Positions 1,205 through 18,958 of a stretch of 32,000 nt of DNA are shown piece after piece (position 1 is the stretch's first letter; every line of letters starts with the position of its first letter). The DNA is taken from the NCBI GenBank assembly GCA_021777225.1, contig JAJYDQ010000037.1:2006-34005 (forward strand). The letters are read 5' to 3'. A program made the translations under genes and the position numbers. Under the pieces are notes generated by a model. It had not been told where the DNA came from. It did no database searches and saw only the letters and a list, made by a program, of their open reading frames with translations. The DNA comes from Deltaproteobacteria bacterium (GTDB lineage Bacteria > Desulfobacterota > Desulfomonilia > Desulfomonilales > Desulfomonilaceae).

Positions 1205-1250
1205 TTTGAAAGGGCTCCATTAGTCGGTCAATCCATGTCTCCAAATGGGA

Positions 1251-1490
1251 TCACTGAATGATGTCGCAAATTCTCTGATATTCGAGGTAATCCAACAATC
1301 CGGATTCACAGGTAGCCGGTAGGCGATAACCACATTTCCCACATTCGTATCCCACAAAATCACAATCCTCGATCCTAATGTTTCCATGTCCTATTTCATC
1401 ACCTAGAAAAACTATTTCGGAAGAAACTTTGGCCCCGTTGCAAACCTCAACTATCTTATCATTTCCACATTTCGGACATTTCCAATACAT
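1251..1490 (-). CDS. Four-cysteine zinc-ribbon protein (79 aa)
   Basis: Two CxxC pairs (CPKC near the N-terminus, CGKC near residue 50). AGGGGG SD about 9 nt upstream of ATG 1490. Confidence 0.5.
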   Translation of the reverse strand: MYWKCPKCGNDKIVEVCNGAKVSSEIVFLGDEIGHGNIRIEDCDFVGYECGKCGYRLPATCESGLLDYLEYQRICDIIQ

Positions 1491-2886: not shown

Positions 2887-2945
2887 CGAAACCTCACGCA
2901 TAAGGATTGTGAGCCAGACGGGTGCGAAATCCATGTTTTTAGTTC

Positions 2946-3866
2946 TCACTGTTTGGGGATTGTGTCTAGAGAATTCTCCTCTCGCTTCCTGATAGCTATT
3001 CTTAAGAACTTTCGGACTGGAGGCATCATGGGTTTTTCTCTAAGGACTACAATATCCGCTGGGAACTCAATGTTGCCTTCAACAAGGTCAATCTTTTTCA
3101 AGGCGCCTTTGGCAAGCTCTTCAGCCACCTCGTTAGCCATAACGAAAGAAATCCCCATGCGGCGTTCCACATAAGCCAGCATAAAACTTAAACTGCCTGA
3201 CTCTATGATAGCGGAAGGTTTAACATCGTGTTCCGCTAGCTTCTTCAGGATAGCATCACGAGAACCTGAACCTTTTTCACGTATTATCAGGAAGGCTTCG
3301 GAGAGGTTCTTAATGGAAACTCTGTCCTGTTGGGAAAACGGGTGGTCAGGCCTGGCTACTAATACCAATTCAACAATTGCAAAGGGAAACGACTTGAAGC
3401 AAGCGTCATAATTAGTTCTGGCGACAACAATCAAATCTTCTTTTCGATTCCTCAAACGGGCCAACAAGTCAAACGAGTTTCCCTCATTCAATTTCACCAG
3501 AATTTTGGGAAACTGATCCTGAAACCTTGAGACCAGTTCCGGCATTAGTGTTACCGCATAATCTTTGGTTGTTCCAATTCTCAAAACACCAGAACTTGGT
3601 CGCCTCGATTCATCAAGAAGAGACTCAATTTGCCCTAGCCGAGCAAATATAACCTTGCTCAACAAGAATATTGATTCCCCAACGTCTGTAAGCTTGTATT
3701 GGTTTCCTTCTCGATAGAACAATTTTACTGCGCATTCTTCCTGGAACCGCTGAATTTGTTGTGAGATCGCTGATTGACTGACGTTCATAATTTCAGCAGC
3801 GCGAGTCATGCTATGAAAGAGGCAGAAATGATAAAATGTTTCCAGGTGCTTCAGGTTGATTGCCAT
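2946..3866 (-). CDS. LysR-family transcriptional regulator 1
   Basis: N-terminal HTH MTRAAEIMNVSQSAISQQIQRFQEE followed by a LysR substrate-binding-type domain (IIREKGSGSR). Trimmed to ATG 3866 (MAINLKHLETF), the usual LysR N-terminus. Divergent from the ubiX operon. Confidence 0.85.
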   Translation of the reverse strand: MAINLKHLETFYHFCLFHSMTRAAEIMNVSQSAISQQIQRFQEECAVKLFYREGNQYKLTDVGESIFLLSKVIFARLGQIESLLDESRRPSSGVLRIGTTKDYAVTLMPELVSRFQDQFPKILVKLNEGNSFDLLARLRNRKEDLIVVARTNYDACFKSFPFAIVELVLVARPDHPFSQQDRVSIKNLSEAFLIIREKGSGSRDAILKKLAEHDVKPSAIIESGSLSFMLAYVERRMGISFVMANEVAEELAKGALKKIDLVEGNIEFPADIVVLREKPMMPPVRKFLRIAIRKREENSLDTIPKQ

Positions 3867-3894
3867 ACCGGAACCCCGCTTTGCCAGAGTATAG

Positions 3895-3911
3895 TATAAG
3901 ACAGACTTATA
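3895..3911. promoter_or_regulatory. LysR-type operator (T-N11-A dyad) TATAAG-acaga-CTTATA
   Basis: Perfect 6-5-6 palindrome read directly. It contains the T-N11-A LysR box, lies between lysR1 and the ubiX operon, and has arms identical to the site at 15150-15166. Confidence 0.55.
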
Positions 3912-3931
3912 AACATATAACTTTTTCTGTC

Positions 3932-3961
3932 TTGACTTGACAGCCACAAAAAGTTGATAAT
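3932..3961 (+). promoter_or_regulatory. Candidate sigma70-type promoter for the ubiX operon (TTGACT-N18-GATAAT)
   Basis: Hexamers read directly. The -35 starts exactly 20 nt after the LysR box, the same spacing as at the second locus. It would place the box near -65, the classical LysR activation position. Confidence 0.35.
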
Positions 3962-4292: not shown

Positions 4293-4856
4293 GTGAAGAG
4301 AATTGTTGTCGGCATAAGCGGAGCAAGTGGAACCATCTACGGGGTTCGCTTGCTAGAAGTTTTAAATCAACTTGATGGCATCGAGACTCATTTGATTCTT
4401 TCGCGGGGAGCAAGGGTTACAATGGAACATGAGACTTCGATCAGACCAGAAGCCCTGGAAAGACTAGCTCATGTATCTCACTCCCCTGACAATCTTGCAG
4501 CTTGTATTTCAAGTGGATCTTTCAAGACTCACGGTATGGTAGTAGCTCCTTGCTCAATGAAAAGCCTATCTATGATCGCCAACTCTATAGATGATAACCT
4601 TTTGATTCGATCAGCCGATGTAACCTTAAAGGAAAGAAGAAAACTTATTTTGATTGTCCGGGAAACCCCTCTCCATCTCGGCCATCTCCGTCAGATGACC
4701 GCCGTGACAGAGATGGGCGCGATAATATTGCCACCTGTCCCATCTTTCTACCACAAGCCAAAGACAATAGAGGATATTGTGGATCAGACGATAGGCAAGG
4801 CTTTAGATCAATTGGACATTGACCATTATCTGTTCCAACGCTGGTCAGGAGGATGA
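4293..4856 (+). CDS. ubiX: Flavin prenyltransferase UbiX (prFMN synthase)
   Basis: MKRIVVGISGASG N-terminus, CSMKSLSMIANS and LKERRKLILIVRETPLH are hallmark UbiX/Pad1 motifs. GTG 4293 is preferred over TTG 4275 because GGAAAGG lies 6 nt upstream. Confidence 0.9.
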   Translation: MKRIVVGISGASGTIYGVRLLEVLNQLDGIETHLILSRGARVTMEHETSIRPEALERLAHVSHSPDNLAACISSGSFKTHGMVVAPCSMKSLSMIANSIDDNLLIRSADVTLKERRKLILIVRETPLHLGHLRQMTAVTEMGAIILPPVPSFYHKPKTIEDIVDQTIGKALDQLDIDHYLFQRWSGG

Positions 4857-5365
4857 AAAAAGAAGAGCTTGAGAAAATAATTATCAACCTACTGGACTCA
4901 TCCACAACAATGACATTAAGCTGCACTTTATCGGATGAACCATGGGTGTGTTCAGTATTTTACGCTCGGCAAGGATTCGACCTCGTTTTTTTTTCGTCAC
5001 GGAATTCCAGACACTCTAAAGTTTTCAAGGAGAATCGTCGAGCCGCAGCATCAATTTATAAAGACTGCGATAGTTGGAGAGATATCAGAGGATTACAGAT
5101 AGAAGGTCGGGTAGACATTTTAACTAAAATACCAGCGGTGGCTAAGGGTACGGTAACTTATTTTAGGAAATATCCATTTGCAAGGGAGTTTTTCAAAGCA
5201 GGTTCAATTTTGTCTGATGGACTTGCGGGAAAAATGAGTGCCGTCGCTCTGTATGTTTTCCGACCGTCAAGCATATGGTACCTCAATAATCTGGATGGCT
5301 TGGGCGTTAGGTGGAAGCTAGATATACGCAACGGGCTGGCAGTTGACCCACCTGTTCAGGCCTGA
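4853..5365 (+). CDS. Pyridoxamine 5'-phosphate oxidase-like (split-barrel) FMN-binding protein
   Basis: 170 aa. The pattern TMTLSCT..DEPWVCSVFYA..DLVFFSS.NSRHSKVF.EN..AAASIY is typical of the PNPOx-like family. Its ATG overlaps the ubiX stop (GGAGGATGA), indicating translational coupling. Confidence 0.7.
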   Translation: MKKEELEKIIINLLDSSTTMTLSCTLSDEPWVCSVFYARQGFDLVFFSSRNSRHSKVFKENRRAAASIYKDCDSWRDIRGLQIEGRVDILTKIPAVAKGTVTYFRKYPFAREFFKAGSILSDGLAGKMSAVALYVFRPSSIWYLNNLDGLGVRWKLDIRNGLAVDPPVQA

Positions 5366-5454
5366 CCTTTAGGATTGATCATGATGCGTGGTCGTTTCAT
5401 GAAACGAAGGACGTGTAATATCGAATCATTAAGGAAGACAGAGGAGGATCAAAC

Positions 5455-7287
5455 ATGGCCGCGATGAATTTTCCGAATCCCCATGAGGCGGAGAGGATCC
5501 CAGGCACTGAAGGCTGGGAAAGAATGTATCCGTATCACTACCAGTATACTACTGATGATCCGGATCGGAAAAAATACGAAGAAAACATGTTTTGGTTTTA
5601 TGACGGGTTGCACTACCCAGAACCGATGTATCCTTTTGATATAATATGGGATGAAGCTTGGTTCCTGGCGTTATCCCAGTTCAACACCAGAATTTTTATA
5701 GTTCCTCCCGCCCTTGGTATCGATCACCGTATTCACAACGGTTATATTTACATAACCCCATTACCCGTCGCCGATCCTTCAGACATACCGAAGAGAGCCG
5801 AACTTTTCATGAAACGCGCCGGGTATTATTACCAAAACTGGGATCGATTGCATGACAACTGGGAAGCCAAGATGCGAGGTATTATTGAGCGTTTGGCTGA
5901 TTTGAAGATCCCGGAACTCCCCGAAATGGAAGAGGAGTCAGTGGTTACGGAGGGAATTGGAGTTTCAACGGGATACAAGCTACTCAAAGCTTACGATGAA
6001 CTTATCGACCTCGGAATCCTGGCATGGCAGTATCATTTTGAATTCCTTAACCTTGGATATGCCGCCTACGTAGTGTTCGTTGATTTTTGTCAGAAGGCTT
6101 TTCCGGACATCCCACTTCAACGGATAACCCAAATGGTGGGAGGCATAGATGTCATAATTTATAGGCCTGACGAGGAACTCAAGAAACTTGCAAAGCTAGC
6201 GATAGATCTCAAAGTTGATGAGATTGCCATGAAAGGTTCTGCAGCCGTTATCCTGAAAGAAATGGCAGCTTCTGAAAATGGAAGAAAATGGCTGGAGGCC
6301 CTTGAAACAGCTCGGCAACCATGGTTTTACGTTTCCACGGGCACAGGATGGTACCACCACGACAAGTCATGGAATGACGATCTTGATATCCCTTTATCAT
6401 CTATGGGTATTTACATTGAAAAGTTACGAAAAGGAGAAAACATAGACAGGCCCACCAAGGCCATTATCGCTGAAAGGGACCGACTGGCTTCCGAGTACAG
6501 GGCATTGCTCAAGACGGAGGCTGATATACAAACCTTCGATCAACTGCTTGGGACCTCCAGAACCGTTTTCCCATACGTGGAAAATCACCTCTTTTACGTT
6601 GAACATTGGTTTCATAGCCTTTTTTGGAACAAGATAAGGGAAGTATCGAAGATATTGGTTGATTTCAAATTTATAGAAGATGTTGAGGACATTTGGTATT
6701 TGAAGAGGTCCGAAATTAAGGATGCTCTTTGGGACGTGGTTACCGGTTGGGCTACCGGTAGCAATCCGAGGGGCCCGTTGGTATGGCCCAAGGAGGTGGC
6801 CTGGCGCAAAGAGGTCATGGCCAAGTTCCGTGAGTGGACACCGCCGGATGGTATGGGAACCATTCCGGAAACAATTAATGAGCCTTTTACGATTGTTCTC
6901 TGGGGTATTACATCCGAATCGATGTCTCATTGGGCTAAACTCAAGAGTATATCCGAAGGTGATCTGACGAAGATATACGGCTTTCCTGGTTCCCCTGGAG
7001 TGGTGGAAGGTAAGGTTCGCGTATGCCGCACAGTCAAAGAGGTGGGACAACTTCAGGAAGGGGAAATACTAGTCGCTCCTACAACTTCTCCTAGCTGGGC
7101 TCCGGCCTTCCAAAAAATCAAGGCTGCCATTACTGATGTTGGAGGGGTTATGTGCCATGCGGCTATAGTCTGTCGCGAGTATGGCCTTCCGGCCATCGTG
7201 GGAACAGGATCTGCGACATCGAGGCTGAAAACCGGCCAAAGAATAAGGCTTGATGGCTCCAAAGGTGAAATCAACATAATCGACTAG
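5455..7287 (+). CDS. ppsA: PEP-utilizing enzyme, phenylphosphate synthase alpha (PpsA)-like subunit with phospho-histidine swivel domain
   Basis: 610 aa. C-terminal mobile domain GSPGVVEGKVRV...LVAPTTSPSWAP...GGVMCHAAIVCREYGLPAIVG carries the catalytic His. The N-terminus (GTEGWERMYPYHYQ, FWFYDGLHYPEPMYPFD) matches my recollection of PpsA-type proteins. GAGGAGG SD lies 7 nt upstream. Confidence 0.8.
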   Translation: MAAMNFPNPHEAERIPGTEGWERMYPYHYQYTTDDPDRKKYEENMFWFYDGLHYPEPMYPFDIIWDEAWFLALSQFNTRIFIVPPALGIDHRIHNGYIYITPLPVADPSDIPKRAELFMKRAGYYYQNWDRLHDNWEAKMRGIIERLADLKIPELPEMEEESVVTEGIGVSTGYKLLKAYDELIDLGILAWQYHFEFLNLGYAAYVVFVDFCQKAFPDIPLQRITQMVGGIDVIIYRPDEELKKLAKLAIDLKVDEIAMKGSAAVILKEMAASENGRKWLEALETARQPWFYVSTGTGWYHHDKSWNDDLDIPLSSMGIYIEKLRKGENIDRPTKAIIAERDRLASEYRALLKTEADIQTFDQLLGTSRTVFPYVENHLFYVEHWFHSLFWNKIREVSKILVDFKFIEDVEDIWYLKRSEIKDALWDVVTGWATGSNPRGPLVWPKEVAWRKEVMAKFREWTPPDGMGTIPETINEPFTIVLWGITSESMSHWAKLKSISEGDLTKIYGFPGSPGVVEGKVRVCRTVKEVGQLQEGEILVAPTTSPSWAPAFQKIKAAITDVGGVMCHAAIVCREYGLPAIVGTGSATSRLKTGQRIRLDGSKGEINIID

Positions 7288-7317
7288 ATATTTGTCGTAA
7301 TACTATAGGAGTCCGCG

Positions 7318-8397
7318 ATGGACACATCAGGGTATGTGATTCCCTTTGAAAATTGCGATAACAGCATGGTGGGCATCGTAGGAGGAAAATGCGCCAGTCT
7401 GGGGGAACTAATGAAGGCCAGAATCCCGGTTCCCCCGGGCTTTGCTATCACAACCGCCGCATATGAACAATTCCTCAATGACAATGACCTGAAAAAAAAG
7501 ATTATCAATCGTCTGACCAATCTAAATGATGAGGACCTTTCTAAACTAGAAGAAGCGTCAAAAGATATCCGAAGCTGGATTGAGGCCGGAACGATAAACG
7601 AAACATTGGAAGACATCATCGCTTCGCATTACCGCCTCCTGTCCCGCCGTTCCCGCATACCGGCACTGCCGGTTGCGGTTCGATCTTCAGCAACAGCGGA
7701 AGATCTTCCTGGCGCCAGCTTTGCCGGCCAACAGGACACTTTCCTTTGGATAAGGGGAGTGGATCAGTTGCTCGACAGAACAAAAAGGTGCTGGTCCAGC
7801 CTGTTCACACCCAGAGCAATCGCTTACAGAATAAAAATGGGATTTGATCATTCCGTGGTGCTTATTAGCGTTGCGATCCAGAAGATGGTCAGATCGTTTA
7901 CGGCAGGAGTTATGTTTACACTGAATCCAGCCACGGGTGATAGGGCTACAGTAGTTATAGACTCGAACTACGGTTATGGGGAAAGTGTAGTGTCCGGGGA
8001 AGTAACGCCTGACCAGTTTCACGTGAACAAAATCACTATGGATGTTGTAAAGAAGACCGTTTCAGAGAAGAAGATTTATTACACGACGGACCCGGAATCC
8101 GATGAAGTTCTAAAACTCGATTTACATCCAGAACGACAAACATCACAGAGTCTTCTGGACGAAGAGATAATTCAGCTTGCCAAAGTCGGGAAAATTATTG
8201 AGCAACATTACGGGCGTCCTATGGATATAGAATGGGCCACAGAAAAGGGACTGCCCTACAAAGGGGAAATCTTTATTCTTCAGAGCCGCCCTGAAACCGT
8301 TTGGAGCCAAAAGGAGGCTAAACCGTTAGTAGAGCCCAAGGCTTCTGCGATCGAACAAATAATCGCTGGGCTGATCAAGGGACGAACCATTACATGA
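7318..8397 (+). CDS. ppsB: Pyruvate phosphate dikinase N-terminal (ATP-grasp) domain protein, phenylphosphate synthase beta (PpsB)-like
   Basis: 359 aa. VGGKCASLGEL, PVPPGFAITT, AVRSSATAEDLPGASFAGQQDT and DIEWA...ILQSRPET form the PPDK_N / PEP synthase ATP-binding module. AGGAG SD present. Confidence 0.85.
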   Translation: MDTSGYVIPFENCDNSMVGIVGGKCASLGELMKARIPVPPGFAITTAAYEQFLNDNDLKKKIINRLTNLNDEDLSKLEEASKDIRSWIEAGTINETLEDIIASHYRLLSRRSRIPALPVAVRSSATAEDLPGASFAGQQDTFLWIRGVDQLLDRTKRCWSSLFTPRAIAYRIKMGFDHSVVLISVAIQKMVRSFTAGVMFTLNPATGDRATVVIDSNYGYGESVVSGEVTPDQFHVNKITMDVVKKTVSEKKIYYTTDPESDEVLKLDLHPERQTSQSLLDEEIIQLAKVGKIIEQHYGRPMDIEWATEKGLPYKGEIFILQSRPETVWSQKEAKPLVEPKASAIEQIIAGLIKGRTIT

Positions 8398-8434
8398 GCG
8401 TCAAATAACCTAAGATAAGGAGATGTGGATTCGT

Positions 8435-9841
8435 ATGAAAGACATGAGAGATTTTGTCAGGGAAGCTGAGGCAAAAGGACTCTGCAAAAGGATTAAGGCG
8501 GAGGTGGACTGGGACCTCGAACTGTCACATATCGCCAAACTCAACGAGGAACAAAGCGGTCCCGCTCTGTTATTTGAAAATGTAAGGGATTATCACACAC
8601 CGGTAATCACCAGCGTATGCACTACGACGGAACGTCTGTCATTGATCATGGGGCAGCCACTCGGCTCAACCTTAGTGAATCTTTATGACGCGTGGGCCAG
8701 GTTAGGCGAGAATCTGCTTCCTCCTAAGTATATTGACAAGGCGGCAGCGCCGTGCAAGGAAAATATTTTGACCGGAGACCAGATCGATCTCTACAAGTTC
8801 CCGGTTCCCCGATGGTACCCACTGGATGGCGGGCGTTATATAGGCACTGCCCACTTTTACATTACGAAAGATCCTGAAACAGGCTGGGTCAACCTGGGTA
8901 CTTACCGCGCGCAACTACTGGGAAAGGACAAGATCGGAACCCAGTTCATCAAGGGCAAACACGCCGACATCATGCTAAAAAAATATAAGGCATTGGGCAA
9001 ACCGATGCCTGTGGCCTCGATAATTGGATGTGACCCTTTGCTTTTCATCATGGGGGCGGCCCGAATATCCGCTTCCGTGTCGGAATATGACGTGGCCGGA
9101 GCCCTCAGGGGAACTCCTGTTGAAGTAGTAAAGGGAGAAACCGTCGATCTGCCCATCCCAGCGCATGCCGAAATCGTTATCGAAGGTGAGGTGGACGCCG
9201 ACAAATTCATGGAAGAAGGACCGTTTGGCGAGTACACCGGTTATTACTCTGGCGTGGGCGCCGACCCGCGAAATTTCGTGAATGTGAAATGCGTCACTCA
9301 CCGAAATAATCCCATTCTGTGGGGAACCACAGTGGGTCGGGCAGTGACCGACACTCATATGACCATGGCGCTTTCCTACGGAGCGACCCTCTGGCAGCAA
9401 CTCCTCGCTATGAAGATACCGGGTTTAAAAGCCGTTTACTGTCCCCCCGAAGGGTCGGGCAGATTCCTTGCTATCATCTCTGTTAAACAGATGTATCCAG
9501 GCCATGCGGACCAAGTGCTGACAGCGGCAATCTCTACGGAGATGGGCGCATATGGTCTAAAAACAGTGATCGTTGTAGATGAAGACATCGATCCATGGGA
9601 TATCCCACGAGTGATGTACGCGCTCAGCTTCAGATTTCAACCCAACCGTTCTCAGGTCATCAAGCGGGGCAGATCAACACCGTTGGATCCTTCACTGCCG
9701 ATCGACGCCAGAGACATAACTGGCCGTCTCCTCCTGGATGCTACCATTCCTTATGACTGGAAAGAGAAGCCAATTCCTATCGAACTGGACCCAAAAGTGG
9801 TGGAAAGAGTCAAGGGAAGGTGGTCCGAACTGGGACTTTGA
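8435..9841 (+). CDS. UbiD-family prFMN-dependent (de)carboxylase
   Basis: MKDMRDFV N-terminus, NLGTYRAQL, HAEIVIEGEV and EGPFGEYTGYYSG are UbiD-family signatures. ATG 8435 is preferred because AAGGAG abuts ATG 8423 with zero spacing. Confidence 0.9.
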   Translation: MKDMRDFVREAEAKGLCKRIKAEVDWDLELSHIAKLNEEQSGPALLFENVRDYHTPVITSVCTTTERLSLIMGQPLGSTLVNLYDAWARLGENLLPPKYIDKAAAPCKENILTGDQIDLYKFPVPRWYPLDGGRYIGTAHFYITKDPETGWVNLGTYRAQLLGKDKIGTQFIKGKHADIMLKKYKALGKPMPVASIIGCDPLLFIMGAARISASVSEYDVAGALRGTPVEVVKGETVDLPIPAHAEIVIEGEVDADKFMEEGPFGEYTGYYSGVGADPRNFVNVKCVTHRNNPILWGTTVGRAVTDTHMTMALSYGATLWQQLLAMKIPGLKAVYCPPEGSGRFLAIISVKQMYPGHADQVLTAAISTEMGAYGLKTVIVVDEDIDPWDIPRVMYALSFRFQPNRSQVIKRGRSTPLDPSLPIDARDITGRLLLDATIPYDWKEKPIPIELDPKVVERVKGRWSELGL

Positions 9842-9897
9842 ATATTAGATTACCAAACAGAAAATGCTGATCAGTTCGGTCTATGGAGGATGTCTAG

Positions 9898-11559
9898 ATG
9901 AAACCTATTCGTTATAAGCAGAAAATGGTGGATGAATTCGTAAAGGACGGATACTGGACTCAAGAGACCTTTTATGATTTCTGGGACAGAAACGCCCGTG
10001 AATATGGAGAAAGAGAGGCCCTGGTCGATTCCAAATACCGGTTGACTTGGGCCGAGGCTAAGCATCTCGTGGACGCAATGGCTATTTCATGGGTTGAAAT
10101 GGGAATTCCGAAGCATTCCCGTATTATCATTCAGTCCCCCAACAGCGTTTACGGTTTTTTGTCCAGGATCGCTTGTGAAAGAGCCGGCCTCATCTCATTG
10201 ACGGTTTATCCATACCTTCGTCAAAGAGAACTTGAATACATGGTTGAGCGGACAGAGGCATCGGCCGTTATCATCCTAAACATTTACAACAAATTCAATT
10301 ACCTGGAAATGTATAAAGGACTGCAAAAGCAGTTTCCGCATTTGAAAAATATATTTCTGTTTGACAACGAAGTACCGGATTCCGCGCCCGAAGGAACATT
10401 TTCGCTTACCCGCATCGTAAATGAACGTGCCCAAAAGCCCGTGGACGAATCCATCCTTGCGGAAAGAAGACTCGATCCCATATGGAATGTGGCGCTACTG
10501 ACCACTACATCGGGAACTACCGGAATCCCTAAACTTGTGGAATGGCCTATAGCCCCGCGGCTTTGTACGTCCAAGGGCCGTGTGGATATCTGGAAACTGA
10601 ACATGGATGATATCACTATGGCAATCGCTCCCCATGCCGGAGGCGCCGCTGGCACACTCACCTATTTTGCAGCGCCACTTGTCGGGGCAAAGACTGCCAT
10701 GTTGGAGGAATTCTCTCCGGACGGGGCCTTGGCGCTTATTGAAAAGGAAAAGGCGACTGCCATCGGTGTCGTGCCCACTCACTTGGTGAGAATGCTCGAC
10801 GCGGATACGTCCAAGTATGATATGAACTCGCTTCGTTTTATCCGTTCAGCTGGAGGCTATCTTTCTCCACAGGTTGCAGAGGAAGCCGAGCGGGCTTTCG
10901 GCGCATCCATTACGAGCGATCTTGGCACACAGGACATGGGATCGGTATCAGGATGTCGCGTTGAGGATTCCAGAGATTTACGACGTAGGACAGTGGGGCG
11001 GATGCTTCCGGGAAACCAGGTTCGCCTCATAGACGAGGAAAACAAGAACGAAGTTCCAGACGGAGAACCCGGTGTCCTTTATTTCAGAGGCCCCCATGCG
11101 CCGGCCGGTTACTACCGCGACGAAGAACTCACGGCCACGGTCTTCGATCCGAACGGATGGACCACCACCGGCGATATCGTCAAATTCGACCAGGAGTGCC
11201 TGTGGATACTTGGAAGGGCCAAGGATATGATCATCCGGGGAGGACAGAATATTTATCCGGCTGAAATCGAGGGCCTATTGAACGATCATCCCAAGGTGGC
11301 ATCGGTTGCGGTTGTCGGATACCCGGATAGGGAAATGGGAGAACGGGCATGCGCATACGTAATTCCCAAAGCCGGTGACCAATTCACCTTCAAGGAAATG
11401 GTGGAGTTCTTGAAATCTAGGAATATCGCAATGTTCAAACTCCCGGAGCGACTGGAATTGGTGTCCGAGTTTCCCACCGTGGGAGATTCCGGAAAGGTTA
11501 ACAAAGAGGCTCTGAAGAAGGACATCAGGGAAAAGGTCGAAACGGAGGGCAAATCTTGA
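9898..11559 (+). CDS. AMP-forming acyl/aryl-CoA ligase (adenylate-forming superfamily)
   Basis: 553 aa. TTTSGTTGIPKLV (AMP-binding P-loop), GWTTTGDIV and GRAKDMIIRGGQNIYPAEIE. The N-terminus resembles aryl-acid (EntE/benzoate-type) ligases. GGAGGA SD present. Confidence 0.9.
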   Translation: MKPIRYKQKMVDEFVKDGYWTQETFYDFWDRNAREYGEREALVDSKYRLTWAEAKHLVDAMAISWVEMGIPKHSRIIIQSPNSVYGFLSRIACERAGLISLTVYPYLRQRELEYMVERTEASAVIILNIYNKFNYLEMYKGLQKQFPHLKNIFLFDNEVPDSAPEGTFSLTRIVNERAQKPVDESILAERRLDPIWNVALLTTTSGTTGIPKLVEWPIAPRLCTSKGRVDIWKLNMDDITMAIAPHAGGAAGTLTYFAAPLVGAKTAMLEEFSPDGALALIEKEKATAIGVVPTHLVRMLDADTSKYDMNSLRFIRSAGGYLSPQVAEEAERAFGASITSDLGTQDMGSVSGCRVEDSRDLRRRTVGRMLPGNQVRLIDEENKNEVPDGEPGVLYFRGPHAPAGYYRDEELTATVFDPNGWTTTGDIVKFDQECLWILGRAKDMIIRGGQNIYPAEIEGLLNDHPKVASVAVVGYPDREMGERACAYVIPKAGDQFTFKEMVEFLKSRNIAMFKLPERLELVSEFPTVGDSGKVNKEALKKDIREKVETEGKS

Positions 11560-12806
11560 TGGAACGAGTAGTGCTGCTCTTGTCGACACTGGACACAAAA
11601 GGTCTCGAAACCTTTTATCTTAGAGATTCTATTAAAAGTAAGGGTGGCACGTGCTCTATCCTGGACATGAGTATGTCCGGAGAATTTCCCGGCGCGGATA
11701 TATCCTCCTCCGAGACCGCTCGTGCCGCAGGAGCAGATATCGAGGACATTCGGGTTTCCAAAGAGAGAAAGAAAATAACCAGGCAGATGATTGAAGGCGC
11801 AATTAAAATTGTGACCGATTTCTTCAAATCAGGGCGTCTAGCGGGTGTAATAGGTCTGGGAGGTTCTACTGGCAGCCTGATGGCGACTGATGTCATGAGA
11901 GCCTTGCCATTTGGGGTTCCAAAATTTATGGTCAGCTCCACTGCCGCTCTGCCGGGCCTGGCTACGCGATACATAGGAACTGGAGATATCGCAGTGTTGC
12001 ACACTGTGGTAGAGATTGCCGGTTTGTCTAAACCTCTAATGAACCTACTCGATAGGGCGGCGGCGGCCATCACTGGAATGGCCATGGTTGATTCACTTAC
12101 TGTAGAATCATCGCGGAATAGTGGAATTCCTCTTGTCGCCATGTCTATGTTCGGTCCCACCGAACGCTGCGCCCATTACGTGCGACAAAGTCTAGAATCC
12201 AAAGGATATCAGGTAATCGGATTCTCGGCCGCTGGAGTTTGTGACAGGGCCATGGAACAAATGATTTCGGAAGGTTTCTTTGACGGTGTCGTGGAATTAG
12301 CGCCAGGTGGAGTGGGAGAAGAATATCTTGGCGCCATGAGAGCCGCTGGCGCAAATCGTCTGACCAGCGCAGCTAAAATGGGCATTCCCCAGGTAATCAC
12401 GCCGGGTGGGGTCAATCTCACCAGCCCACGAAAATCACATTACAAACCAGAGCATCATGAACGCCGCAAATTCGAACTAGATGAACTCCGAACGTTCTTG
12501 AGGGTCTCTGATGAAGAGATTGTCGGAGTGGCCAGGGTTTTTGCCGAGAAGCTCAACCAGGCAAAAGGGCCTATTATTTTTCTCTTTCCCGCACAAGGTT
12601 GGTCCGCCGTCGACCCAACAACGGGACATATGTTTGATAGAGATCAGGACAGGTTGTTTCTCAGGACTCTAAAAGAGGCCCTTGCATCTAATCAGATCAC
12701 CATTAGAGAAGTAGACGCCAATCTGGAGGAACAGACTTTTGCTGAGGCAGTCGCATCCGCTTGTCTGGATATCTTCCCTAAGACTTTTAAATCTCTAAAA
12801 GATTAG
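11559..12806 (+). CDS. Tm-1-like / UPF0261 family putative ATP-binding protein, copy 2
   Basis: LLSTLDTKG, GLGGSTGS and ITPGGVN motifs. Roughly one-third identical by eye to the ORF at 1675-2886. Its ATG overlaps the ligase stop (TGATG), and GGAGGG lies 8 nt upstream. Confidence 0.8.
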   Translation: MERVVLLLSTLDTKGLETFYLRDSIKSKGGTCSILDMSMSGEFPGADISSSETARAAGADIEDIRVSKERKKITRQMIEGAIKIVTDFFKSGRLAGVIGLGGSTGSLMATDVMRALPFGVPKFMVSSTAALPGLATRYIGTGDIAVLHTVVEIAGLSKPLMNLLDRAAAAITGMAMVDSLTVESSRNSGIPLVAMSMFGPTERCAHYVRQSLESKGYQVIGFSAAGVCDRAMEQMISEGFFDGVVELAPGGVGEEYLGAMRAAGANRLTSAAKMGIPQVITPGGVNLTSPRKSHYKPEHHERRKFELDELRTFLRVSDEEIVGVARVFAEKLNQAKGPIIFLFPAQGWSAVDPTTGHMFDRDQDRLFLRTLKEALASNQITIREVDANLEEQTFAEAVASACLDIFPKTFKSLKD

Positions 12807-12905
12807 AATTCTGATTCCAGGTTCTGGGAAACTATTGGTTGCAAAAACCTCGGCTTGAATTCGATAACGTGGAATTACTCCCTACAAACGATTCAGGAGG
12901 CTATA

Positions 12906-13547
12906 ATGTTTGTTAGAAATTGGATGCATCCTCAAGAATTGTCAATCTCAAGTGACGCTTTGGCGACCGAAGCTGTTACGCTAATTTCGCAGAATAACCT
13001 GAAAATGCTTCCGGTGGTTGACAACGGCCGATTAAGGGGAGTTGTCCACAGAAGAGACCTTAGCGAGGCGGCGACCTGTGTAAGTGAAAGTGGTAACACA
13101 TGTGAAATGAACTACTTCTGCAACAAGCTCAAGGTAAAGGATGTCATGGTCCGCATGCCTGTGACTGTCTCTGTCGATGACAGTGTTGAAGACGTGCTTA
13201 TGAAGGGTCGAGAACGAACAATGAGCACTTTTCCTGTAATGGACGGGGACAAAGTGGTGGGGGTGCTTTCCGACCGAGAGATTTTTGTGATGCTTTTCAA
13301 ACTCTTGGAGGTAGGGCTGGAATGCACTCGAATTACGCTTACGGATGTAAATCTTCAAGAAGGAACCTTGTCGAAGATTCTAAAAATTGTGGAGGACAGT
13401 AACTGTATGATCCGTGCGGTCTTTACCGTACCGGAAGGGAAGAACGGGATAGCCCGTGTTGTGTTGCGCACTGAATGTCAGGATTCTGGAACTTTGAGAA
13501 AAAATTTGCAGGATAGTGGCTTTCATATATTAGAATTCAAGGAATAA
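12906..13547 (+). CDS. CBS-domain pair protein, comparable to phenylphosphate synthase stimulatory protein PpsC
   Basis: Two CBS signatures (LKMLPVVDNGRLRGVVHRRDL; TFPVMDGDKVVGVLSDREI) plus a C-terminal ACT-like region. About 213 aa after trimming to ATG 12906, which has AGGAGG 5 nt upstream. Confidence 0.7.
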   Translation: MFVRNWMHPQELSISSDALATEAVTLISQNNLKMLPVVDNGRLRGVVHRRDLSEAATCVSESGNTCEMNYFCNKLKVKDVMVRMPVTVSVDDSVEDVLMKGRERTMSTFPVMDGDKVVGVLSDREIFVMLFKLLEVGLECTRITLTDVNLQEGTLSKILKIVEDSNCMIRAVFTVPEGKNGIARVVLRTECQDSGTLRKNLQDSGFHILEFKE

Positions 13548-13565
13548 GTTAAAGAGGAGCCTGAC

Positions 13566-14165
13566 ATGTTTGGACCTTTCCATGAAGTATATGAATTAGC
13601 AAAGCCATTTCTCAATACCAGGAATAACGAAATCCACATGAAGATATCATATGCGTTTTGTAGTAAATTGCTGGAAAGAGAAGGTGGTGTGGAAACTGTG
13701 GCTAAGCCAGCCATAATACTTCACGATGTGGGATGGAAAATGGTACCAGAAGAATTGCAACTTAAAGCATTCGGTCCGCATGAATACGACAGAAAAATTA
13801 ATCGAATACACGAGGTAGAAGGAGCGCGAATAGCGCGTGAGATCCTTGAAAAAGTAAAATATGATCCCGTGTTGATCGATGAAATTGCTGAGATCATTTT
13901 GGGACACGATTCCCGTCAAGACCCTTTGTCCATTAGTGACGCCATTGTAAAAGACGCCGACAAACTGTGGCGTTTTTCTCAAGAAGCTTTAATAATCGAT
14001 AGCGAGCGGTTTAGTATAGATCCTCGCGTCCATGCAGTATGGCTAGGTCAACAAATAGACGGATGGTTAATAACCGAAACCGGTCGCAAGACAGCTCGTG
14101 AAGAACAACAACTTAGGATCGCAGGCCTCGAAAAGCCTACGGTCAACCCGAGTGGCCAAAAATAA
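13566..14165 (+). CDS. HD-domain metal-dependent phosphohydrolase, paralog 1
   Basis: H...HD motif (AIILHDVGW), ILGHDS and VKDADKLW. Close paralog of 23791-24372. Confidence 0.8.
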   Translation: MFGPFHEVYELAKPFLNTRNNEIHMKISYAFCSKLLEREGGVETVAKPAIILHDVGWKMVPEELQLKAFGPHEYDRKINRIHEVEGARIAREILEKVKYDPVLIDEIAEIILGHDSRQDPLSISDAIVKDADKLWRFSQEALIIDSERFSIDPRVHAVWLGQQIDGWLITETGRKTAREEQQLRIAGLEKPTVNPSGQK

Positions 14166-14212: not shown

Positions 14213-15133
14213 TCACAGAACCGGGTTCCGTTCCAATGGAGGTTGCGCCGGGAGCAGGAACTCAAGGAAGGCGGTGTCAGCCTTCGATAGCGTGCGTTGT
14301 TTCTTCACGATTACATCAATTCCCAATATAAAAGGCCCTTCCAAAAGAGGAATCTCAACCAATCGTCCTGCCTGAAGGTCCGGCTCAACGCCCATTTTCG
14401 CCAACATAGCCATACCTTTTCCCATTTCTACAAGTTCTTTTATAAAATCAACGTTCCCTGTTTCAATAAATGCTGAGGGAGCAAAACCCTGGGTTTCAAA
14501 AATTTCATCCACAAGTCGTCGCGTTCCAGATCCTTTTTCCCTTAGAATGAGATTTTCATGACGCAAATCCTGAATTGAGATTGCCGATCGAGAACAAAAT
14601 AGGTGCCCTGGAGCAGTAACCAGGACGATTTGATCCCGGCTGAATGGGATTACTTTCAATTTTTCGTCATAAATTAAGCGCCCGACAATGGCCAAATCAA
14701 TTCGATCTTCTAGAACACTTCTAATCATTTCTTCGGAACTGCCTTCATCAATCTGAATCTGTACTGTTGGATATGCTTCCCTAAATTTTGAGATATAACG
14801 ACTCATGAGGTATTTTACCAGAGTCTTGGTGCTTCCAATTTTTAAGATTGCAAGTGACGTTTTAGCATCTCGCTTCAAAAGATTGTCCACCTCTGCAACA
14901 AGTTCAAAGATTCTCCCAGCAATCATGTAAACTTTCTTGCCGGTTTCTGTTAATTCGAGGCCTCTCTTCTTTCTGACTAGAAGTCGTACACCATATTGTT
15001 CCTCCATTGCCTTGATCTGCATACTTACAGCCGGTTGGCTGATGAAGAGTTTTTCCGCCGCAAGGGAGATGCTCCCACAACTGGCGGCGAGATAGAATGC
15101 CCTAAATTGATTGAGGTTAAGGTCTATTCCCAT
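14213..15133 (-). CDS. LysR-family transcriptional regulator 2
   Basis: HTH ISLAAEKLFISQPAVSMQIKAMEEQ plus a LysR effector domain (ILREKGSGTR). Start set at ATG 15133 (MGIDLNLNQFRAF), which aligns with the N-terminus of LysR 1; ATG 15145 is also possible. Confidence 0.85.
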   Translation of the reverse strand: MGIDLNLNQFRAFYLAASCGSISLAAEKLFISQPAVSMQIKAMEEQYGVRLLVRKKRGLELTETGKKVYMIAGRIFELVAEVDNLLKRDAKTSLAILKIGSTKTLVKYLMSRYISKFREAYPTVQIQIDEGSSEEMIRSVLEDRIDLAIVGRLIYDEKLKVIPFSRDQIVLVTAPGHLFCSRSAISIQDLRHENLILREKGSGTRRLVDEIFETQGFAPSAFIETGNVDFIKELVEMGKGMAMLAKMGVEPDLQAGRLVEIPLLEGPFILGIDVIVKKQRTLSKADTAFLEFLLPAQPPLERNPVL

Positions 15134-15149
15134 GTCCAGCCGCATCAAA

Positions 15150-15216: not shown

Positions 15217-15341
15217 AACATTCAACATGATCTGACCGTAACCAAGGTTGCGCTTGGCTGTTTTCGGCTTGGCACAACAACACGTGTATGGATCCAAACA
15301 CTCCACGGCCCAACTTAACCCTCAGCAAGGAGGAACCGGAA

Positions 15342-16967: not shown

Positions 16968-16976
16968 GAGGTAAAA

Positions 16977-17237
16977 ATGAAGGTTAATTCGACTGGATTA
17001 GGAAAAACAACCATGGTGGCCCATTTTGCCAACCTTGAAAAAGTTAACGGTGATTCAGCCCCGGCGATGAGACTTAGCATAGAAGCTACAGAACCTGTGC
17101 ATTGGTCTATAAAAGCCACTGTTGGAGGAGACGACCTTAGAGCGTTCGCCTGCATGATGCTAAGACCTTCCAACCTTTTCTGTGTATTAAAGTTACTTAT
17201 TTTTGGGAAAAAGCTCACGCCGCCGGAATCCAATTAG
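16977..17237 (+). CDS. Small hypothetical protein (86 aa) between the two flavoprotein genes
   Basis: Strong AGGAGG SD 5 nt upstream of the ATG and tight packing between neighbours. Hydrophobic C-terminal stretch LFCVLKLLIFG. No family recognised. Confidence 0.55.
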   Translation: MKVNSTGLGKTTMVAHFANLEKVNGDSAPAMRLSIEATEPVHWSIKATVGGDDLRAFACMMLRPSNLFCVLKLLIFGKKLTPPESN

Positions 17238-18946: not shown

Positions 18947-18958
18947 CGGGAGGAACCC

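What the first reader, a model, noticed from the sequence alone, without database searches (positions are those of the whole stretch)
4293..14165. Phenylphosphate-synthase-like / UbiD operon with a non-canonical accessory set
The kinase part resembles the three-protein phenylphosphate synthase of Thauera aromatica: a His-swivel protein, an ATP-grasp protein and a CBS-pair stimulatory protein. The carboxylase part differs. There is only one UbiD-type gene, and nothing in the window resembles the small gamma subunit or the HAD-type phosphatase delta subunit of phenylphosphate carboxylase. The operon instead carries an HD phosphohydrolase, a Tm-1-like putative ATP-binding protein and a PNPOx-like protein. 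The CBS gene is separated from the kinase genes by three other genes. The HD protein could replace the delta-subunit phosphatase function. That would be a differently built phospho-aryl carboxylase, or the substrate may not be phenol at all.
Basis: partly seen in the sequence, partly recalled or inferred. Interest (0 to 1): 0.65.

Follow-up and report, generated by a model that had tools for sequence, protein, structure and literature searches.

The report
Strict-anaerobe phenol activation operon
This is a nine-gene operon of the kind sulfate-reducing bacteria use to turn phenol into 4-hydroxybenzoyl-CoA without oxygen; the type is already known and studied, but how its single carboxylase subunit works is unsolved, and the always-present extra gene is a Tm-1-like (UPF0261) protein, not the HD protein.

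Summary
Window 4293-14165 is one tightly packed plus-strand operon: UbiX, a PNPOx/YhbP-like protein, PpsA, PpsB, one PpcB-type UbiD, a DhbE-like aryl-acid AMP/CoA ligase, UPF0261 (Tm-1-like), a CBS pair and an HD protein. LysR genes flank it. No PpcA, PpcC or PpcD homolog is in the window.

It is not a new design. PpcB (83%), the ligase (81%), UPF0261 (53%) and UbiX (61%) are orthologs of the phenol-induced 'phe' cluster of Desulfatiglans anilini. That paper and the Geobacter metallireducens work it cites already report that only ppcB is in the cluster and that the carboxylase may work differently.

Across 80 related Desulfobacterota loci the core is PpsA-PpsB-PpcB-ligase-UPF0261-UbiX:
- UPF0261 follows PpcB in 60 of 60 informative loci.
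- The ligase is present in 56 of 60.
- CBS, HD and PNPOx-like genes are present in only 13, 12 and 11 of 37.

The D. anilini UPF0261 protein is about 50-fold more abundant on phenol. UPF0261 is the family of MarK, an aromatic kinase described in 2025, but the in-operon copy has a remodelled acceptor pocket (His219 to Ser).

The HD protein has a 70% identical paralog in a UbiD-less dikinase cluster nearby. HD as a PpcD substitute is poorly supported; UPF0261 is the better candidate.

The parts
1675..2949 (-). UPF0261 paralog (upstream copy), co-oriented with the LysR gene and overlapping it by 4 bp. It keeps the MarK-type signature D-T-K, Gly195 and His219.
   Evidence: Pfam UPF0261 plus UPF0261_C. 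NF002674 scores 451 bits. It is 36% identical to the in-operon copy. His219 is present in 41 of 41 relatives of this type.
2946..3947 (-). LysR-type regulator, divergent from the operon.
   Evidence: Pfam HTH_1 plus LysR_substrate. A LysR gene lies next to the cluster in 35 of 37 fully covered loci.
4293..4856 (+). UbiX flavin prenyltransferase, which makes prFMN for the UbiD enzyme.
   Evidence: PF02441 E=2e-45. NF004685 scores 279 bits against a cut-off of 188. The GVG start at 4293 has the sequence ggaaagg upstream. It is 61% identical to D. anilini 02056.
4853..5365 (+). PNPOx/YhbP-like split-barrel protein. Its start overlaps the UbiX stop (ATGA). It is a putative flavin-binding helper; its function is unknown.
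   Evidence: PF01243 scores 22.9 bits, below the gathering score. YhbP model E=3e-9. Only 8 homologs were found. The AF2 model has pLDDT 64. Foldseek hits are all PNPOx-like FMN-, heme- or F420-binding proteins, with TM about 0.45. It is present in 11 of 37 loci.
5455..7287 (+). PpsA-like subunit of an aryl (phenol) dikinase, carrying the swivel histidine His568.
   Evidence: PEP-utilizers domain E=3e-26. NF006152 scores 996 bits against a cut-off of 723. Histidine motif. It is 42% identical to D. anilini PpsA.
7318..8397 (+). PpsB-like ATP-binding subunit of the dikinase.
   Evidence: PPDK_N E=2e-116. PpsA and PpsB lie upstream of PpcB in 61 of 62 loci.
8435..9841 (+). PpcB-type UbiD (de)carboxylase, the only UbiD gene in the window.
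   Evidence: UbiD_N, UbiD and UbiD_C domains. TIGR02724 scores 488 (cut-off 469); TIGR02723 225 (565); VdcC 320 (650). It is 83% identical to D. anilini H567DRAFT_02059. The nearest solved structure is PhdA, 7PDA.
9898..11559 (+). Aryl-acid AMP/CoA ligase of the DhbE/EntE type, the presumed 4-hydroxybenzoate-CoA ligase.
   Evidence: AMP-binding plus AMP-binding_C domains. Best PDB matches are 2,3-dihydroxybenzoate-AMP and salicylate-AMP ligases, E=4e-72 to 4e-66. It is 81% identical to D. anilini 02058, which is phenol-induced. It is the next gene after PpcB in 56 of 60 loci.
11556..12806 (+). UPF0261 (Tm-1/MarK family) protein, in-operon copy. The ATP motif is kept and the acceptor pocket is remodelled (Pro196, Ser at MarK His219, Lys301, Leu304). 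Its start overlaps the ligase stop.
   Evidence: Pfam. Full-length match to MarK 9MPY, E=1e-46. Residue counts. It lies within 6 kb downstream of PpcB in 60 of 60 loci. The D. anilini ortholog 02057 is about 50 times more abundant on phenol.
12855..13547 (+). CBS-pair protein, PpsC-like by architecture only. The likely start is 12906.
   Evidence: Two CBS domains, E=4e-20. No specific NCBIfam model matches. The product called in L003 is 213 aa. It is present in 13 of 37 loci.
13566..14165 (+). Stand-alone HD-domain metal-dependent phosphohydrolase (HD1).
   Evidence: PF01966 E=8e-10. Invariant H24, H53-D54, H82, H114-D115 and D132. AF2 pLDDT 92. Nearest folds are 2PQ7, YpgQ and 3DJB, TM 0.6-0.66. 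It is 70% identical to HD2 at 23791-24372. HD genes occur in 12 of 37 loci.
14213..15148 (-). Second LysR-type regulator, convergent with the operon's end.
   Evidence: Pfam HTH_1 plus LysR_substrate.

Best explanation
The operon is the Desulfobacterota (strict-anaerobe) version of the anaerobic phenol activation pathway. It is an ortholog of the phenol-induced 'phe' cluster of Desulfatiglans anilini and most likely sits in a Desulfomonile-like genome.

Inferred route:
1. PpsA/PpsB phosphorylate phenol, or a close phenolic analogue, with ATP to give AMP, Pi and the aryl phosphate. The CBS protein probably acts as a PpsC-like stimulator.
2. The single PpcB-type UbiD, loaded with prFMN made by UbiX, carboxylates the aryl phosphate in the para position to give 4-hydroxybenzoate and Pi.
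3. The DhbE-like ligase converts 4-hydroxybenzoate to the CoA thioester and so pulls the reaction forward.

What is shown and what is inferred:
- Shown here: family assignments, orthology and gene linkage.
- Shown in D. anilini by others: phenol induction of the cluster proteins and phenylphosphate formation in cell extracts.
- Inferred: the carboxylation step itself. It has never been reconstituted for this enzyme type.

The conserved extra component is the UPF0261 protein, not HD. I consider it most likely to be a stoichiometric partner of PpcB, and possibly of the ligase. It would bind the anionic aryl substrate in its remodelled MarK-type pocket and so supply the function that PpcC and PpcD, and perhaps PpcA, provide in Thauera. 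My confidence in that specific role is about 0.3.

The CBS, HD1 and PNPOx-like genes are accessories specific to the Desulfomonile lineage. CBS would stimulate the kinase, HD1 would act as an aryl-phosphate or nucleotide phosphohydrolase, and the PNPOx-like protein would be a flavin or prFMN helper coupled to UbiX.
For: Family assignment:
- The PpcB equivalog model passes its cut-off, while the PpcA, VdcC and UbiD models fail theirs.

Orthology with a studied cluster:
- Identity to the D. anilini genes is 83% for PpcB, 81% for the ligase, 53% for UPF0261 and 61% for UbiX, and these four genes lie in the same order, with LysR and a second UPF0261 upstream; in D. anilini PpsA and PpsB lie downstream of the Hcr genes rather than upstream of PpcB.
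- That cluster's proteins are more abundant on phenol, and extracts of phenol-grown cells make phenylphosphate (PMC6114531).

Linkage across 80 species-level loci:
- PpsA and PpsB lie upstream of PpcB in 61 of 62 loci.
- The ligase is present in 56 of 60.
- UPF0261 is present in 60 of 60.
- UbiX is present in 34 of 37.
- CBS, HD and PNPOx-like genes are present in 13, 12 and 11 of 37.

UPF0261:
- Full-length homolog of the aromatic kinase MarK (E=1e-46; PMC12624787).
- The ATP motif D-T-K is kept in 57 of 63 and Gly195 in 63 of 63.
- Subfamily-specific invariant changes cluster at the MarK substrate pocket: Pro196, Ser219, Lys301 and Leu304.

D. anilini proteomics, Table S1 of PMC7500099:
- UPF0261 (02057) has areas of 0, 5e7, 5e7 and 2.5e9 in the four conditions.
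- Its maximum is in the same condition as PpcB (1.8e10), the ligase (1.3e10) and UbiX (3.9e7, the only condition in which UbiX is detected).
- It is therefore about 65 times more abundant than UbiX, which argues for a role in the main pathway rather than in cofactor supply.

Ligase:
- Its nearest solved relatives are hydroxybenzoate-adenylating enzymes.
Against: - No carboxylase activity with phenylphosphate has ever been measured for this enzyme type. Assays in D. anilini extracts failed, and refolded Ppc-beta plus Ppc-beta2 converted phenylphosphoamidate but not phenylphosphate.
- The window's PpsA is only 42% identical to D. anilini PpsA, so the kinase substrate is not fixed by orthology.
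- D. anilini uses a PpcA-like protein encoded elsewhere that is induced on phenol. The window's genome may do the same, and I could not see the rest of that genome.
- In most orthologs the in-operon UPF0261 lacks the His219 that MarK uses to contact the phenolic oxygen, so the kinase analogy does not transfer directly. A minority of orthologs (4 of 57) keep His, so the Ser is not strictly required.
- The D. anilini cluster also contains HcrABC and a second CoA ligase, both absent from this operon.
Confidence: 0.75

Rival explanations
1. The HD phosphohydrolase replaces the HAD-type PpcD subunit: it hydrolyses the aryl phosphate at the carboxylase and hands the phenolate to the single UbiD.
For: - HD1 has a complete, invariant HD metal-ligand set and a confident HD hydrolase fold.
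- It is the last gene of the operon.
- HD relatives recur in aromatic-catabolic clusters that contain PpsAB-like dikinases, so a link with aryl-phosphate chemistry is plausible.
Against: - An HD gene is present in only 12 of 37 fully covered PpcB loci, and the studied D. anilini cluster has none.
- HD1 is 69-75% identical in the closest relatives, where most neighbouring genes are 87-97% (only the PNPOx-like gene is comparably low).
- HD2, 70% identical, sits in a cluster with no UbiD, which ties the family to the dikinase rather than to the carboxylase.
- Its nearest solved folds are nucleotide pyrophosphohydrolase-type proteins at 15-19% identity.
Confidence: 0.12
2. The substrate is not phenol but another aromatic with an -OH or -NH2 group, such as aniline, a cresol, catechol or hydroquinone. 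It would be phosphorylated and then carboxylated by the same chemistry.
For: - The window's PpsA and PpsB belong to a different lineage from D. anilini PpsA and PpsB (42% and about 48% identity), while PpcB and the ligase are 83% and 81% identical. Two kinase lineages are therefore joined to one carboxylase module.
- The D. anilini ortholog of this PpcB also takes part in aniline carboxylation through phenylphosphoamidate (PMC7500099).
- The window holds a second dikinase cluster, so the organism handles several phenolic substrates.
Against: - The PpcB, ligase, UPF0261 and UbiX orthologs are most abundant on phenol in D. anilini.
- The ani-type partner UbiD (03872 type) is absent from the window.
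- PpsA passes the cut-offs of all four PRK08296-family NCBIfam models, which are unnamed ('hypothetical protein') but are the models that match PpsA-type alpha subunits here, with full-length alignments.
Confidence: 0.15
3. UPF0261, HD1 and the PNPOx-like protein serve cofactor supply for UbiX and UbiD rather than the main pathway. UPF0261 would be a prenol kinase and HD1 a DMAPP phosphohydrolase, both making DMAP. The PNPOx-like protein would be a flavin or prFMN carrier, or an oxygen-independent maturase.
For: - The PNPOx-like gene overlaps the UbiX stop codon.
- In several Desulfobacterales-type loci an HD gene lies between UPF0261 and UbiX (L042, L046, L057, L071, L079, L080).
- How prFMN matures in obligate anaerobes is an open question, and other helper proteins exist, such as LpdD (PMC10865409).
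- It is established that UbiX uses DMAP. That statement rests on my own knowledge, not on a tool result.
Against: - D. anilini UPF0261 is about 65 times more abundant than UbiX and within 7-fold of PpcB, which does not fit a cofactor-supply enzyme.
- The UPF0261 pocket is related to an aromatic-binding pocket.
- HD and PNPOx-like genes are missing from most loci.
- HD2 sits in a cluster with neither UbiX nor UbiD.
Confidence: 0.1

Closest known systems
Desulfatiglans anilini 'phe' gene cluster (H567DRAFT_02049-02059; Xie & Muller 2018, PMC6114531; Xie et al. 2020, PMC7500099)
   Same: - Both have a PpcB-type single UbiD (83% identity) followed by a DhbE-like ligase (81%), UPF0261 (53%) and UbiX (61%).
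- Both include PpsA and PpsB, and both have a LysR gene and a second UPF0261 gene upstream.
- Neither has ppcA, ppcC or ppcD in the cluster.
   Different: - The gene order differs: here UbiX, the PNPOx-like gene, PpsA and PpsB come before PpcB.
- The window's PpsA and PpsB are of another lineage (42% identity for PpsA).
- The window's operon adds PNPOx-like, CBS and HD genes.
- It lacks the HcrABC reductase genes and the phenylacetate-CoA-ligase-like gene 02049.
Thauera aromatica phenylphosphate synthase PpsABC plus phenylphosphate carboxylase PpcABCD
   Same: - Both have a two-subunit His-swivel dikinase with a CBS protein.
- Both have a UbiD-family beta subunit; the window's passes the TIGR02724 equivalog cut-off.
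- In both, a UbiX-type gene lies nearby.
- Both lead to 4-hydroxybenzoate and then to its CoA ester (background).
   Different: - The window has only one UbiD, with no alpha subunit.
- It has no gamma subunit and no HAD-type delta phosphatase.
- Instead, UPF0261 and a DhbE-like ligase are invariably linked to PpcB.
MarK (Saro_1862, PDB 9MPY), the UPF0261-family aromatic kinase of Novosphingobium aromaticivorans (PMC12624787)
   Same: - Both have the same two-domain fold family, and the sequence alignment is full length (E=1e-46).
- Both window copies conserve the ATP-site D-T-K and Gly195.
- Both proteins sit in an aromatic catabolic context alongside PpsAB-like dikinases (HpeHI/AcvAB in the MarK case).
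   Different: - The in-operon copy has Ser for His219 and Leu for His304, plus an invariant Lys at position 301.
- The upstream copy keeps His219 but not His304.
- Identity to MarK is 28-33%.
- MarK works with a biotin carboxylase pathway under oxic conditions, not with a UbiD enzyme.
Geobacter metallireducens pps-ppcB cluster (Gmet_2100-2102; Schleinitz et al. 2009, cited in PMC6114531 and PMC1924859)
   Same: It is a strict-anaerobe phenol cluster that, as reported, contains only a ppcB homolog.
   Different: I could not read the primary paper or the sequence, so I did not test whether UPF0261 and the ligase are present there.

Membership tests
Thauera-type phenylphosphate carboxylase (PpcABCD) | A beta subunit that matches the PpcB equivalog model | tested here: met
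   TIGR02724 scores 488.2 bits against a cut-off of 468.95.
Thauera-type phenylphosphate carboxylase (PpcABCD) | A second UbiD paralog (alpha subunit) encoded alongside beta | tested here: not met
   The window has only one UbiD. TIGR02723 scores 225 against a cut-off of 565. No second UbiD lies within about 10 kb in any of the 80 related loci. The rest of the genome could not be inspected.
Thauera-type phenylphosphate carboxylase (PpcABCD) | A small gamma subunit and a HAD-type delta phosphatase | tested here: not met
   No HAD domain and no phenyl_P gamma or delta match was found in any window ORF scanned. The D. anilini cluster also lacks them.
Thauera-type phenylphosphate carboxylase (PpcABCD) | Phenylphosphate plus CO2 gives 4-hydroxybenzoate plus Pi, with K+/Mn2+ dependence and O2 sensitivity | not testable with these tools
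   This needs enzyme assays. The activity has not been obtained for the D. anilini ortholog.
Phenylphosphate synthase (PpsABC) | An alpha subunit with a C-terminal PEP-utilizers swivel domain and a catalytic His | tested here: met
   PF00391 E=3e-26. NF006152 scores 996 bits against a cut-off of 723. His568 lies in the same motif as D. anilini His571.
Phenylphosphate synthase (PpsABC) | A separate beta subunit with the PPDK_N ATP-binding domain | tested here: met
   PF01326 E=2e-116, spanning 320 of 328 profile positions.
Phenylphosphate synthase (PpsABC) | A gamma subunit, the roughly 24 kDa CBS protein | tested here: inconclusive
   A CBS-pair protein of 213-230 aa is present. No PpsC-specific model or reference sequence was available. 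It is present in only 13 of 37 related loci.
Desulfobacterota-type phenol cluster (D. anilini phe type) | The PpcB, DhbE-like ligase and UPF0261 trio together with UbiX and PpsA/PpsB | tested here: met
   All are present. Identities to D. anilini are 83%, 81%, 53%, 61% and 42%. The same core is found in 56-61 of about 60 loci.
Desulfobacterota-type phenol cluster (D. anilini phe type) | Induction by phenol | not testable with these tools
   Shown only for D. anilini (PMC6114531; Table S1 of PMC7500099).
MarK-type UPF0261 aromatic kinase | Two-domain UPF0261 fold with the ATP-site D14-T15-K16 | tested here: met
   9MPY E=1e-46 over residues 6-406. D-T-K is present in both window copies.
MarK-type UPF0261 aromatic kinase | A phenol-binding pocket made of Gly195, His219 and His304, each over 90% conserved among MarK homologs | tested here: not met
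   The in-operon copy has Gly, Ser and Leu at these positions. The upstream copy has Gly, His and Tyr. Among the 60 best family representatives, His219 is the rule.
MarK-type UPF0261 aromatic kinase | ATP to ADP phosphorylation of a phenolic OH group | not testable with these tools
   This needs an enzyme assay.
HD-domain phosphohydrolases (YpgQ-like stand-alone type) | The H...HD...D metal-ligand motif and an all-helical HD fold | tested here: met
   PF01966. Invariant H24, H53-D54, H82, H114-D115 and D132. AF2 pLDDT 92. The best Foldseek hits are 2PQ7, 5DQV and 3DJB, with TM 0.60-0.66.

The most novel reading that the evidence does not exclude
The PpcB-type UbiD of strict anaerobes may work as a phenylphosphate carboxylase with a new subunit composition. 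Its obligatory partner would be the diverged, ATP-site-bearing UPF0261 protein, possibly in a complex with the DhbE-like ligase, in place of PpcA, PpcC and PpcD. If so, the repeated failure to reconstitute the activity would be explained by leaving this protein, and a nucleotide, out of the assays.
Probability: 0.3. Interest if true: 0.7.

Novelty: new member of a known kind. Interest (0 to 1): 0.45.

Why it matters
Phenol is a major pollutant and a central intermediate of anaerobic aromatic breakdown.

The Thauera enzyme set is textbook knowledge. For sulfate reducers, iron reducers and syntrophs, however, the carboxylation step has not been reconstituted. The D. anilini authors state that a different mechanism may apply, and that the energy cost of up to four ATP equivalents is hard to reconcile with the small energy budget of these organisms.

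This window adds no new system. The comparison it prompted shows three things:
- One module, PpcB with a DhbE-like ligase and UPF0261, is shared by the 80 best of 305 matching stretches in species-representative genomes. PpcB is 83-97% identical across them.
- The only uncharacterised gene that is always present belongs to a family just shown to be an aromatic kinase.
- That protein is phenol-induced in published proteome data, yet the main text of neither paper discusses it (it is listed only in the proteome table).

Together these give a concrete and inexpensive experiment on an open question.

Tried and rejected
1. Exact-protein look-up of the window's UbiD found nothing on record. The source was inferred from 97% identical MAG loci instead.
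2. Promoter and terminator scans gave counts at chance level and say nothing about the transcription unit.
3. I checked whether the 79-aa zinc-ribbon ORF at 1251-1490(-) could be a VdcD- or PpcC-like small subunit. It has no such match, only a weak hit to the anti-CRISPR AcrVIA2 (E=0.0035), and it is found in only two close relatives. Rejected.
4. I tried to test whether UPF0261 and PpcC/PpcD have complementary distributions. The metagenome scan with the second PpcB type from L085 (49% identical) returned one 1.5-kb locus, so the test could not be done.
5. Sequence searches of the PDB with HD1 and with the PNPOx-like protein gave no significant hit. The AF2 model of the PNPOx-like protein was of low confidence (pLDDT 64), so its Foldseek result supports only a superfamily assignment.
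6. I considered a 'reverse kinase' role for UPF0261, in which phenylphosphate plus ADP would regenerate ATP. I set it aside on thermodynamic grounds, because the ester energy is needed to drive carboxylation. This is my own reasoning and was not computed.
7. The primary papers on G. metallireducens phenol degradation (PMC2698347) and on the C. glutamicum Cre pathway (PMC4813557) were not held. Statements about them rest on citing papers or on my memory.

Full report
**What is in the window**

Between 4293 and 14165 nine plus-strand genes lie with gaps of -4 to 99 nt. The Pfam and NCBIfam assignments are:

| Coordinates | Assignment | Evidence |
|---|---|---|
| 4293-4856 | UbiX flavin prenyltransferase | NF004685, 279 bits against a cut-off of 188 |
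| 4853-5365 | PNPOx/YhbP-like protein | weak, below the Pfam gathering score; its start overlaps the UbiX stop |
| 5455-7287 | PpsA-like His-swivel protein | NF006152, 996 bits; His568 in the conserved motif |
| 7318-8397 | PpsB-like protein | PPDK_N |
| 8435-9841 | UbiD | see below |
| 9898-11559 | AMP-binding ligase | see below |
| 11556-12806 | UPF0261 (Tm-1-like) | overlaps the ligase stop |
| 12855/12906-13547 | CBS-pair protein | two CBS domains |
| 13566-14165 | HD-domain protein | PF01966 |

- LysR genes flank the operon. The upstream LysR is co-transcribed with a second UPF0261 paralog (1675-3947, minus strand).
- No second UbiD, PpcC-like protein or HAD phosphatase was found in any ORF of the window.

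**Which UbiD it is**

- The PpcB equivalog model TIGR02724 scores 488 bits against a cut-off of 469.
- The other models fail their cut-offs: PpcA (225 against 565), VdcC (320 against 650) and UbiD proper (241 against 788).
- The nearest solved structure is the phenazine-1-carboxylate decarboxylase PhdA, 7PDA. No Ppc structure exists in the PDB copy.
- In the protein collection the enzyme belongs to a very tight clade. The best 120 cluster representatives are all at least 78% identical.
- That clade includes Desulfatiglans anilini 'phenylphosphate carboxylase subunit beta' at 83% identity.

**It is the published D. anilini type of phenol cluster**

- The D. anilini locus (L001) reads UPF0261, LysR(-), PpcB, AMP ligase, UPF0261, UbiX, HcrB, HcrC, HcrA, PpsA, PpsB.
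- Counting back from the tags the papers give, these are H567DRAFT_02059 to 02051. The PpsA His571 I find in L001 matches the residue the authors cite.

Xie & Muller 2018 (PMC6114531) reported that:
- the proteins of 02049-02059 are far more abundant on phenol than on benzoate;
- extracts of phenol-grown cells form phenylphosphate;
- phenylphosphate carboxylase activity could not be measured;
- only ppcB is in the cluster, ppcA-like and ppcD-like genes lie elsewhere, and ppcC is absent;
- this, as in Geobacter metallireducens, 'indicat[es] a different catalytic mechanism'.

Xie et al. 2020 (PMC7500099) showed that 02059 together with a second UbiD (03872) converts phenylphosphoamidate, but not phenylphosphate, in vitro.

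**What is conserved**

A scan of species-representative genomes found 305 matching stretches. The best 80 loci are all MAGs. Those labelled Desulfomonile, Desulfomonilaceae or 'Syntrophaceae' are the closest (90-97% identical PpcB), and Desulfobacterales-type loci follow (85-90%). I mapped the window's proteins onto these loci with tblastn.

| Gene | Loci with the gene | Identity to the window |
|---|---|---|
| PpcB | query | 83-97% (median 88) |
| PpsA | 61 of 62 | 40-95% (median 43) |
| PpsB | 61 of 62 | 46-96% (median 49) |
| AMP ligase (next gene after PpcB) | 56 of 60 | 80-97% (median 83) |
| UPF0261 (within 6 kb downstream) | 60 of 60 | 30-95% (median 52) |
| UbiX | 34 of 37 | 56-97% (median 62) |
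| LysR | 35 of 37 | not computed |
| CBS | 13 of 37 | 60-95% (median 72) |
| HD | 12 of 37 | 26-75% (median 50) |
| PNPOx-like | 11 of 37 | 46-75% (median 49) |

- PpcB and the ligase are strikingly conserved.
- The PpsA values show two kinase lineages joined to one carboxylase module.
- The CBS, HD and PNPOx-like genes are essentially confined to the Desulfomonile-type loci.

**UPF0261**

- This family had no known activity until MarK of Novosphingobium was shown in 2025 to be an ATP-to-ADP kinase for phenolic OH groups. Its crystal structure is 9MPY (PMC12624787).
- The in-operon protein aligns with MarK over its full length (E=1e-46).
- It keeps the ATP-site D-T-K (57 of 63 orthologs) and Gly195 (63 of 63).
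- In MarK, His219 hydrogen-bonds the phenolic oxygen. Here that position is Ser in 53 ligase-adjacent orthologs and His in 4.
- His304 is replaced by Leu.
- Changes that are invariant within the subfamily cluster at the MarK pocket, including an invariant Lys at position 301.
- Among the 60 best representatives of the 2973 family clusters, His219 is the rule. This signature is confined to a narrow subgroup.
- The upstream paralog keeps His219 (41 of 41).
- Where the ligase is missing, the UPF0261 next to PpcB is of the His type.
- In the published D. anilini proteome table, UPF0261 (02057) has areas of 0, 5e7, 5e7 and 2.5e9. Its peak is in the same condition as PpcB, the ligase and UbiX.
- The paper says UbiX is found only on phenol, so that condition is phenol.
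- UPF0261 is about 65 times more abundant than UbiX, which argues for a role in the main pathway. The main text of neither D. anilini paper discusses this protein: a search of the 2018 text for '02057' and 'uncharacterized' found nothing, and in the sections of the 2020 paper read here it is not mentioned, appearing only in the proteome table.

**The ligase**

- Its best solved relatives are 2,3-dihydroxybenzoate-AMP and salicylate-AMP ligases (E=4e-72 to 4e-66), which adenylate hydroxybenzoates.
- Its D. anilini ortholog 02058 is phenol-induced, and the authors call its function unknown.
- It is the only ligase in this operon, so I take it to be the 4-hydroxybenzoate-CoA ligase.

**The HD protein**

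- HD1 has an invariant ligand set: H24, H53-D54, H82, H114-D115 and D132.
- The AF2 model is confident (pLDDT 92).
- The nearest folds are small stand-alone HD hydrolases: 2PQ7, the B. subtilis NTP pyrophosphohydrolase YpgQ, and 3DJB. TM-scores are 0.60-0.66 at 15-19% identity.
- HD1 is 70% identical to HD2 (23791-24372) in the neighbouring cluster, which has a second PpsAB-like pair but no UbiD.
- Two of three sampled relatives lie in that same 'cluster 2' context.
- The family therefore follows the dikinases rather than the carboxylase, and it is absent from most PpcB loci. A role as an aryl-phosphate phosphohydrolase remains possible, but as an accessory rather than as the general PpcD substitute.

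**The PNPOx-like protein**

Only eight homologs were found. The model is poor (pLDDT 64), although all fold matches are FMN-, heme- or F420-binding split barrels. Its coupling to UbiX suggests a flavin-related helper. How prFMN matures in anaerobes is an open question (PMC10865409). This role is a guess.

**Most likely mechanism**

1. PpsA/PpsB, with the CBS protein, convert phenol (or a close analogue) and ATP into the aryl phosphate, AMP and Pi.
2. PpcB, carrying prFMN from UbiX, carboxylates it in the para position and releases Pi. UPF0261 is the conserved partner that replaces the missing Thauera subunits. This step is inferred, and my confidence in the UPF0261 role is about 0.3.
3. The ligase traps 4-hydroxybenzoate as its CoA ester.

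Confidence is about 0.75 for the overall assignment and low for each accessory role.

**Verdict**

The operon is a real and correctly described feature. It is a new member of a known, experimentally studied kind. The HD hypothesis is weak. The useful result is the invariant and so far overlooked link between PpcB and UPF0261.

Noticed in passing
window 15288-28575: A second conserved catabolic cluster lies just downstream. It holds two CrtI/amine-oxidase-like FAD proteins with an 86-aa ORF between them, an SDR, a second PpsAB-like dikinase (alpha subunit 560 aa, His517; 25% and 35% identical to PpsA and PpsB), a 219-aa unknown protein, an ABM-fold protein, HD2, a fused 2Fe2S plus molybdopterin aldehyde-oxidoreductase-like enzyme (NF045668, 780 bits against a cut-off of 1100), a DsrC-like protein and a class V aminotransferase. 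It has no UbiD and no ligase. The same module recurs in Desulfomonilaceae contigs (L085, L087), sometimes with a tungsten AOR in place of the Mo enzyme. Its logic (phosphorylate a phenol, oxidise a side chain to the acid, dephosphorylate) resembles the aerobic Cre pathway for 4-cresol, which I recall from memory. It may be an uncharacterised anaerobic alkylphenol route.
   Followed up: partly
window 13566-14165 and 23791-24372: The two HD proteins in the window are 70% identical paralogs. Each closes a dikinase-containing cluster. The family has about 1000 members, mostly in Desulfomonilaceae.
   Followed up: partly
L025-L036 and about 30 other Desulfobacterales-type loci, e.g. L035:11589-12119: In about 32 of 62 related loci a receiver-domain protein of about 175 aa (PF00072, E=4e-12) lies between PpcB and the ligase. 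It is absent from the window and from D. anilini. It could be a regulator, or a phospho-accepting Asp protein.
   Followed up: partly
window 8435-11559 compared with 5455-8397, across L004-L083: Conservation is mosaic. PpcB (83-97%) and the ligase (80-97%) are far more conserved across orders than PpsA and PpsB (medians 43% and 49%). Either the constraint on the first two is unusually strong, or the PpcB-ligase module has spread horizontally onto different kinase backgrounds.
   Followed up: partly
window 989-1490 (minus strand): Two small ORFs lie downstream of the upstream UPF0261. One is a 79-aa four-Cys zinc-ribbon protein with a weak match to the anti-CRISPR AcrVIA2 (7XMW, E=0.0035). The other is a 71-aa ORF. 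They are found only in the two closest MAGs. The zinc-ribbon ORF is 100% identical in L004, although its neighbours there are only 81-95% identical.
   Followed up: partly
L085:12269-16585: A Desulfomonilaceae MAG carries, next to its 'cluster 2', a second phenol-type locus in the order PpsB, PpsA, PpcB. Its PpcB is only 49% identical to the window's and fits the TIGR02724 model well (418 bits over 376 of about 470 residues). These organisms therefore hold more than one PpcB lineage.
   Followed up: partly
window 28592-28825 (-) and 30582-30989 (-): There is a small 4-oxalocrotonate-tautomerase-family ORF (PF01361, E=8e-9) and a fragment with an ARPP-1 domain, which covers only the C-terminal part of the profile. 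Both lie outside the clusters.
   Followed up: no
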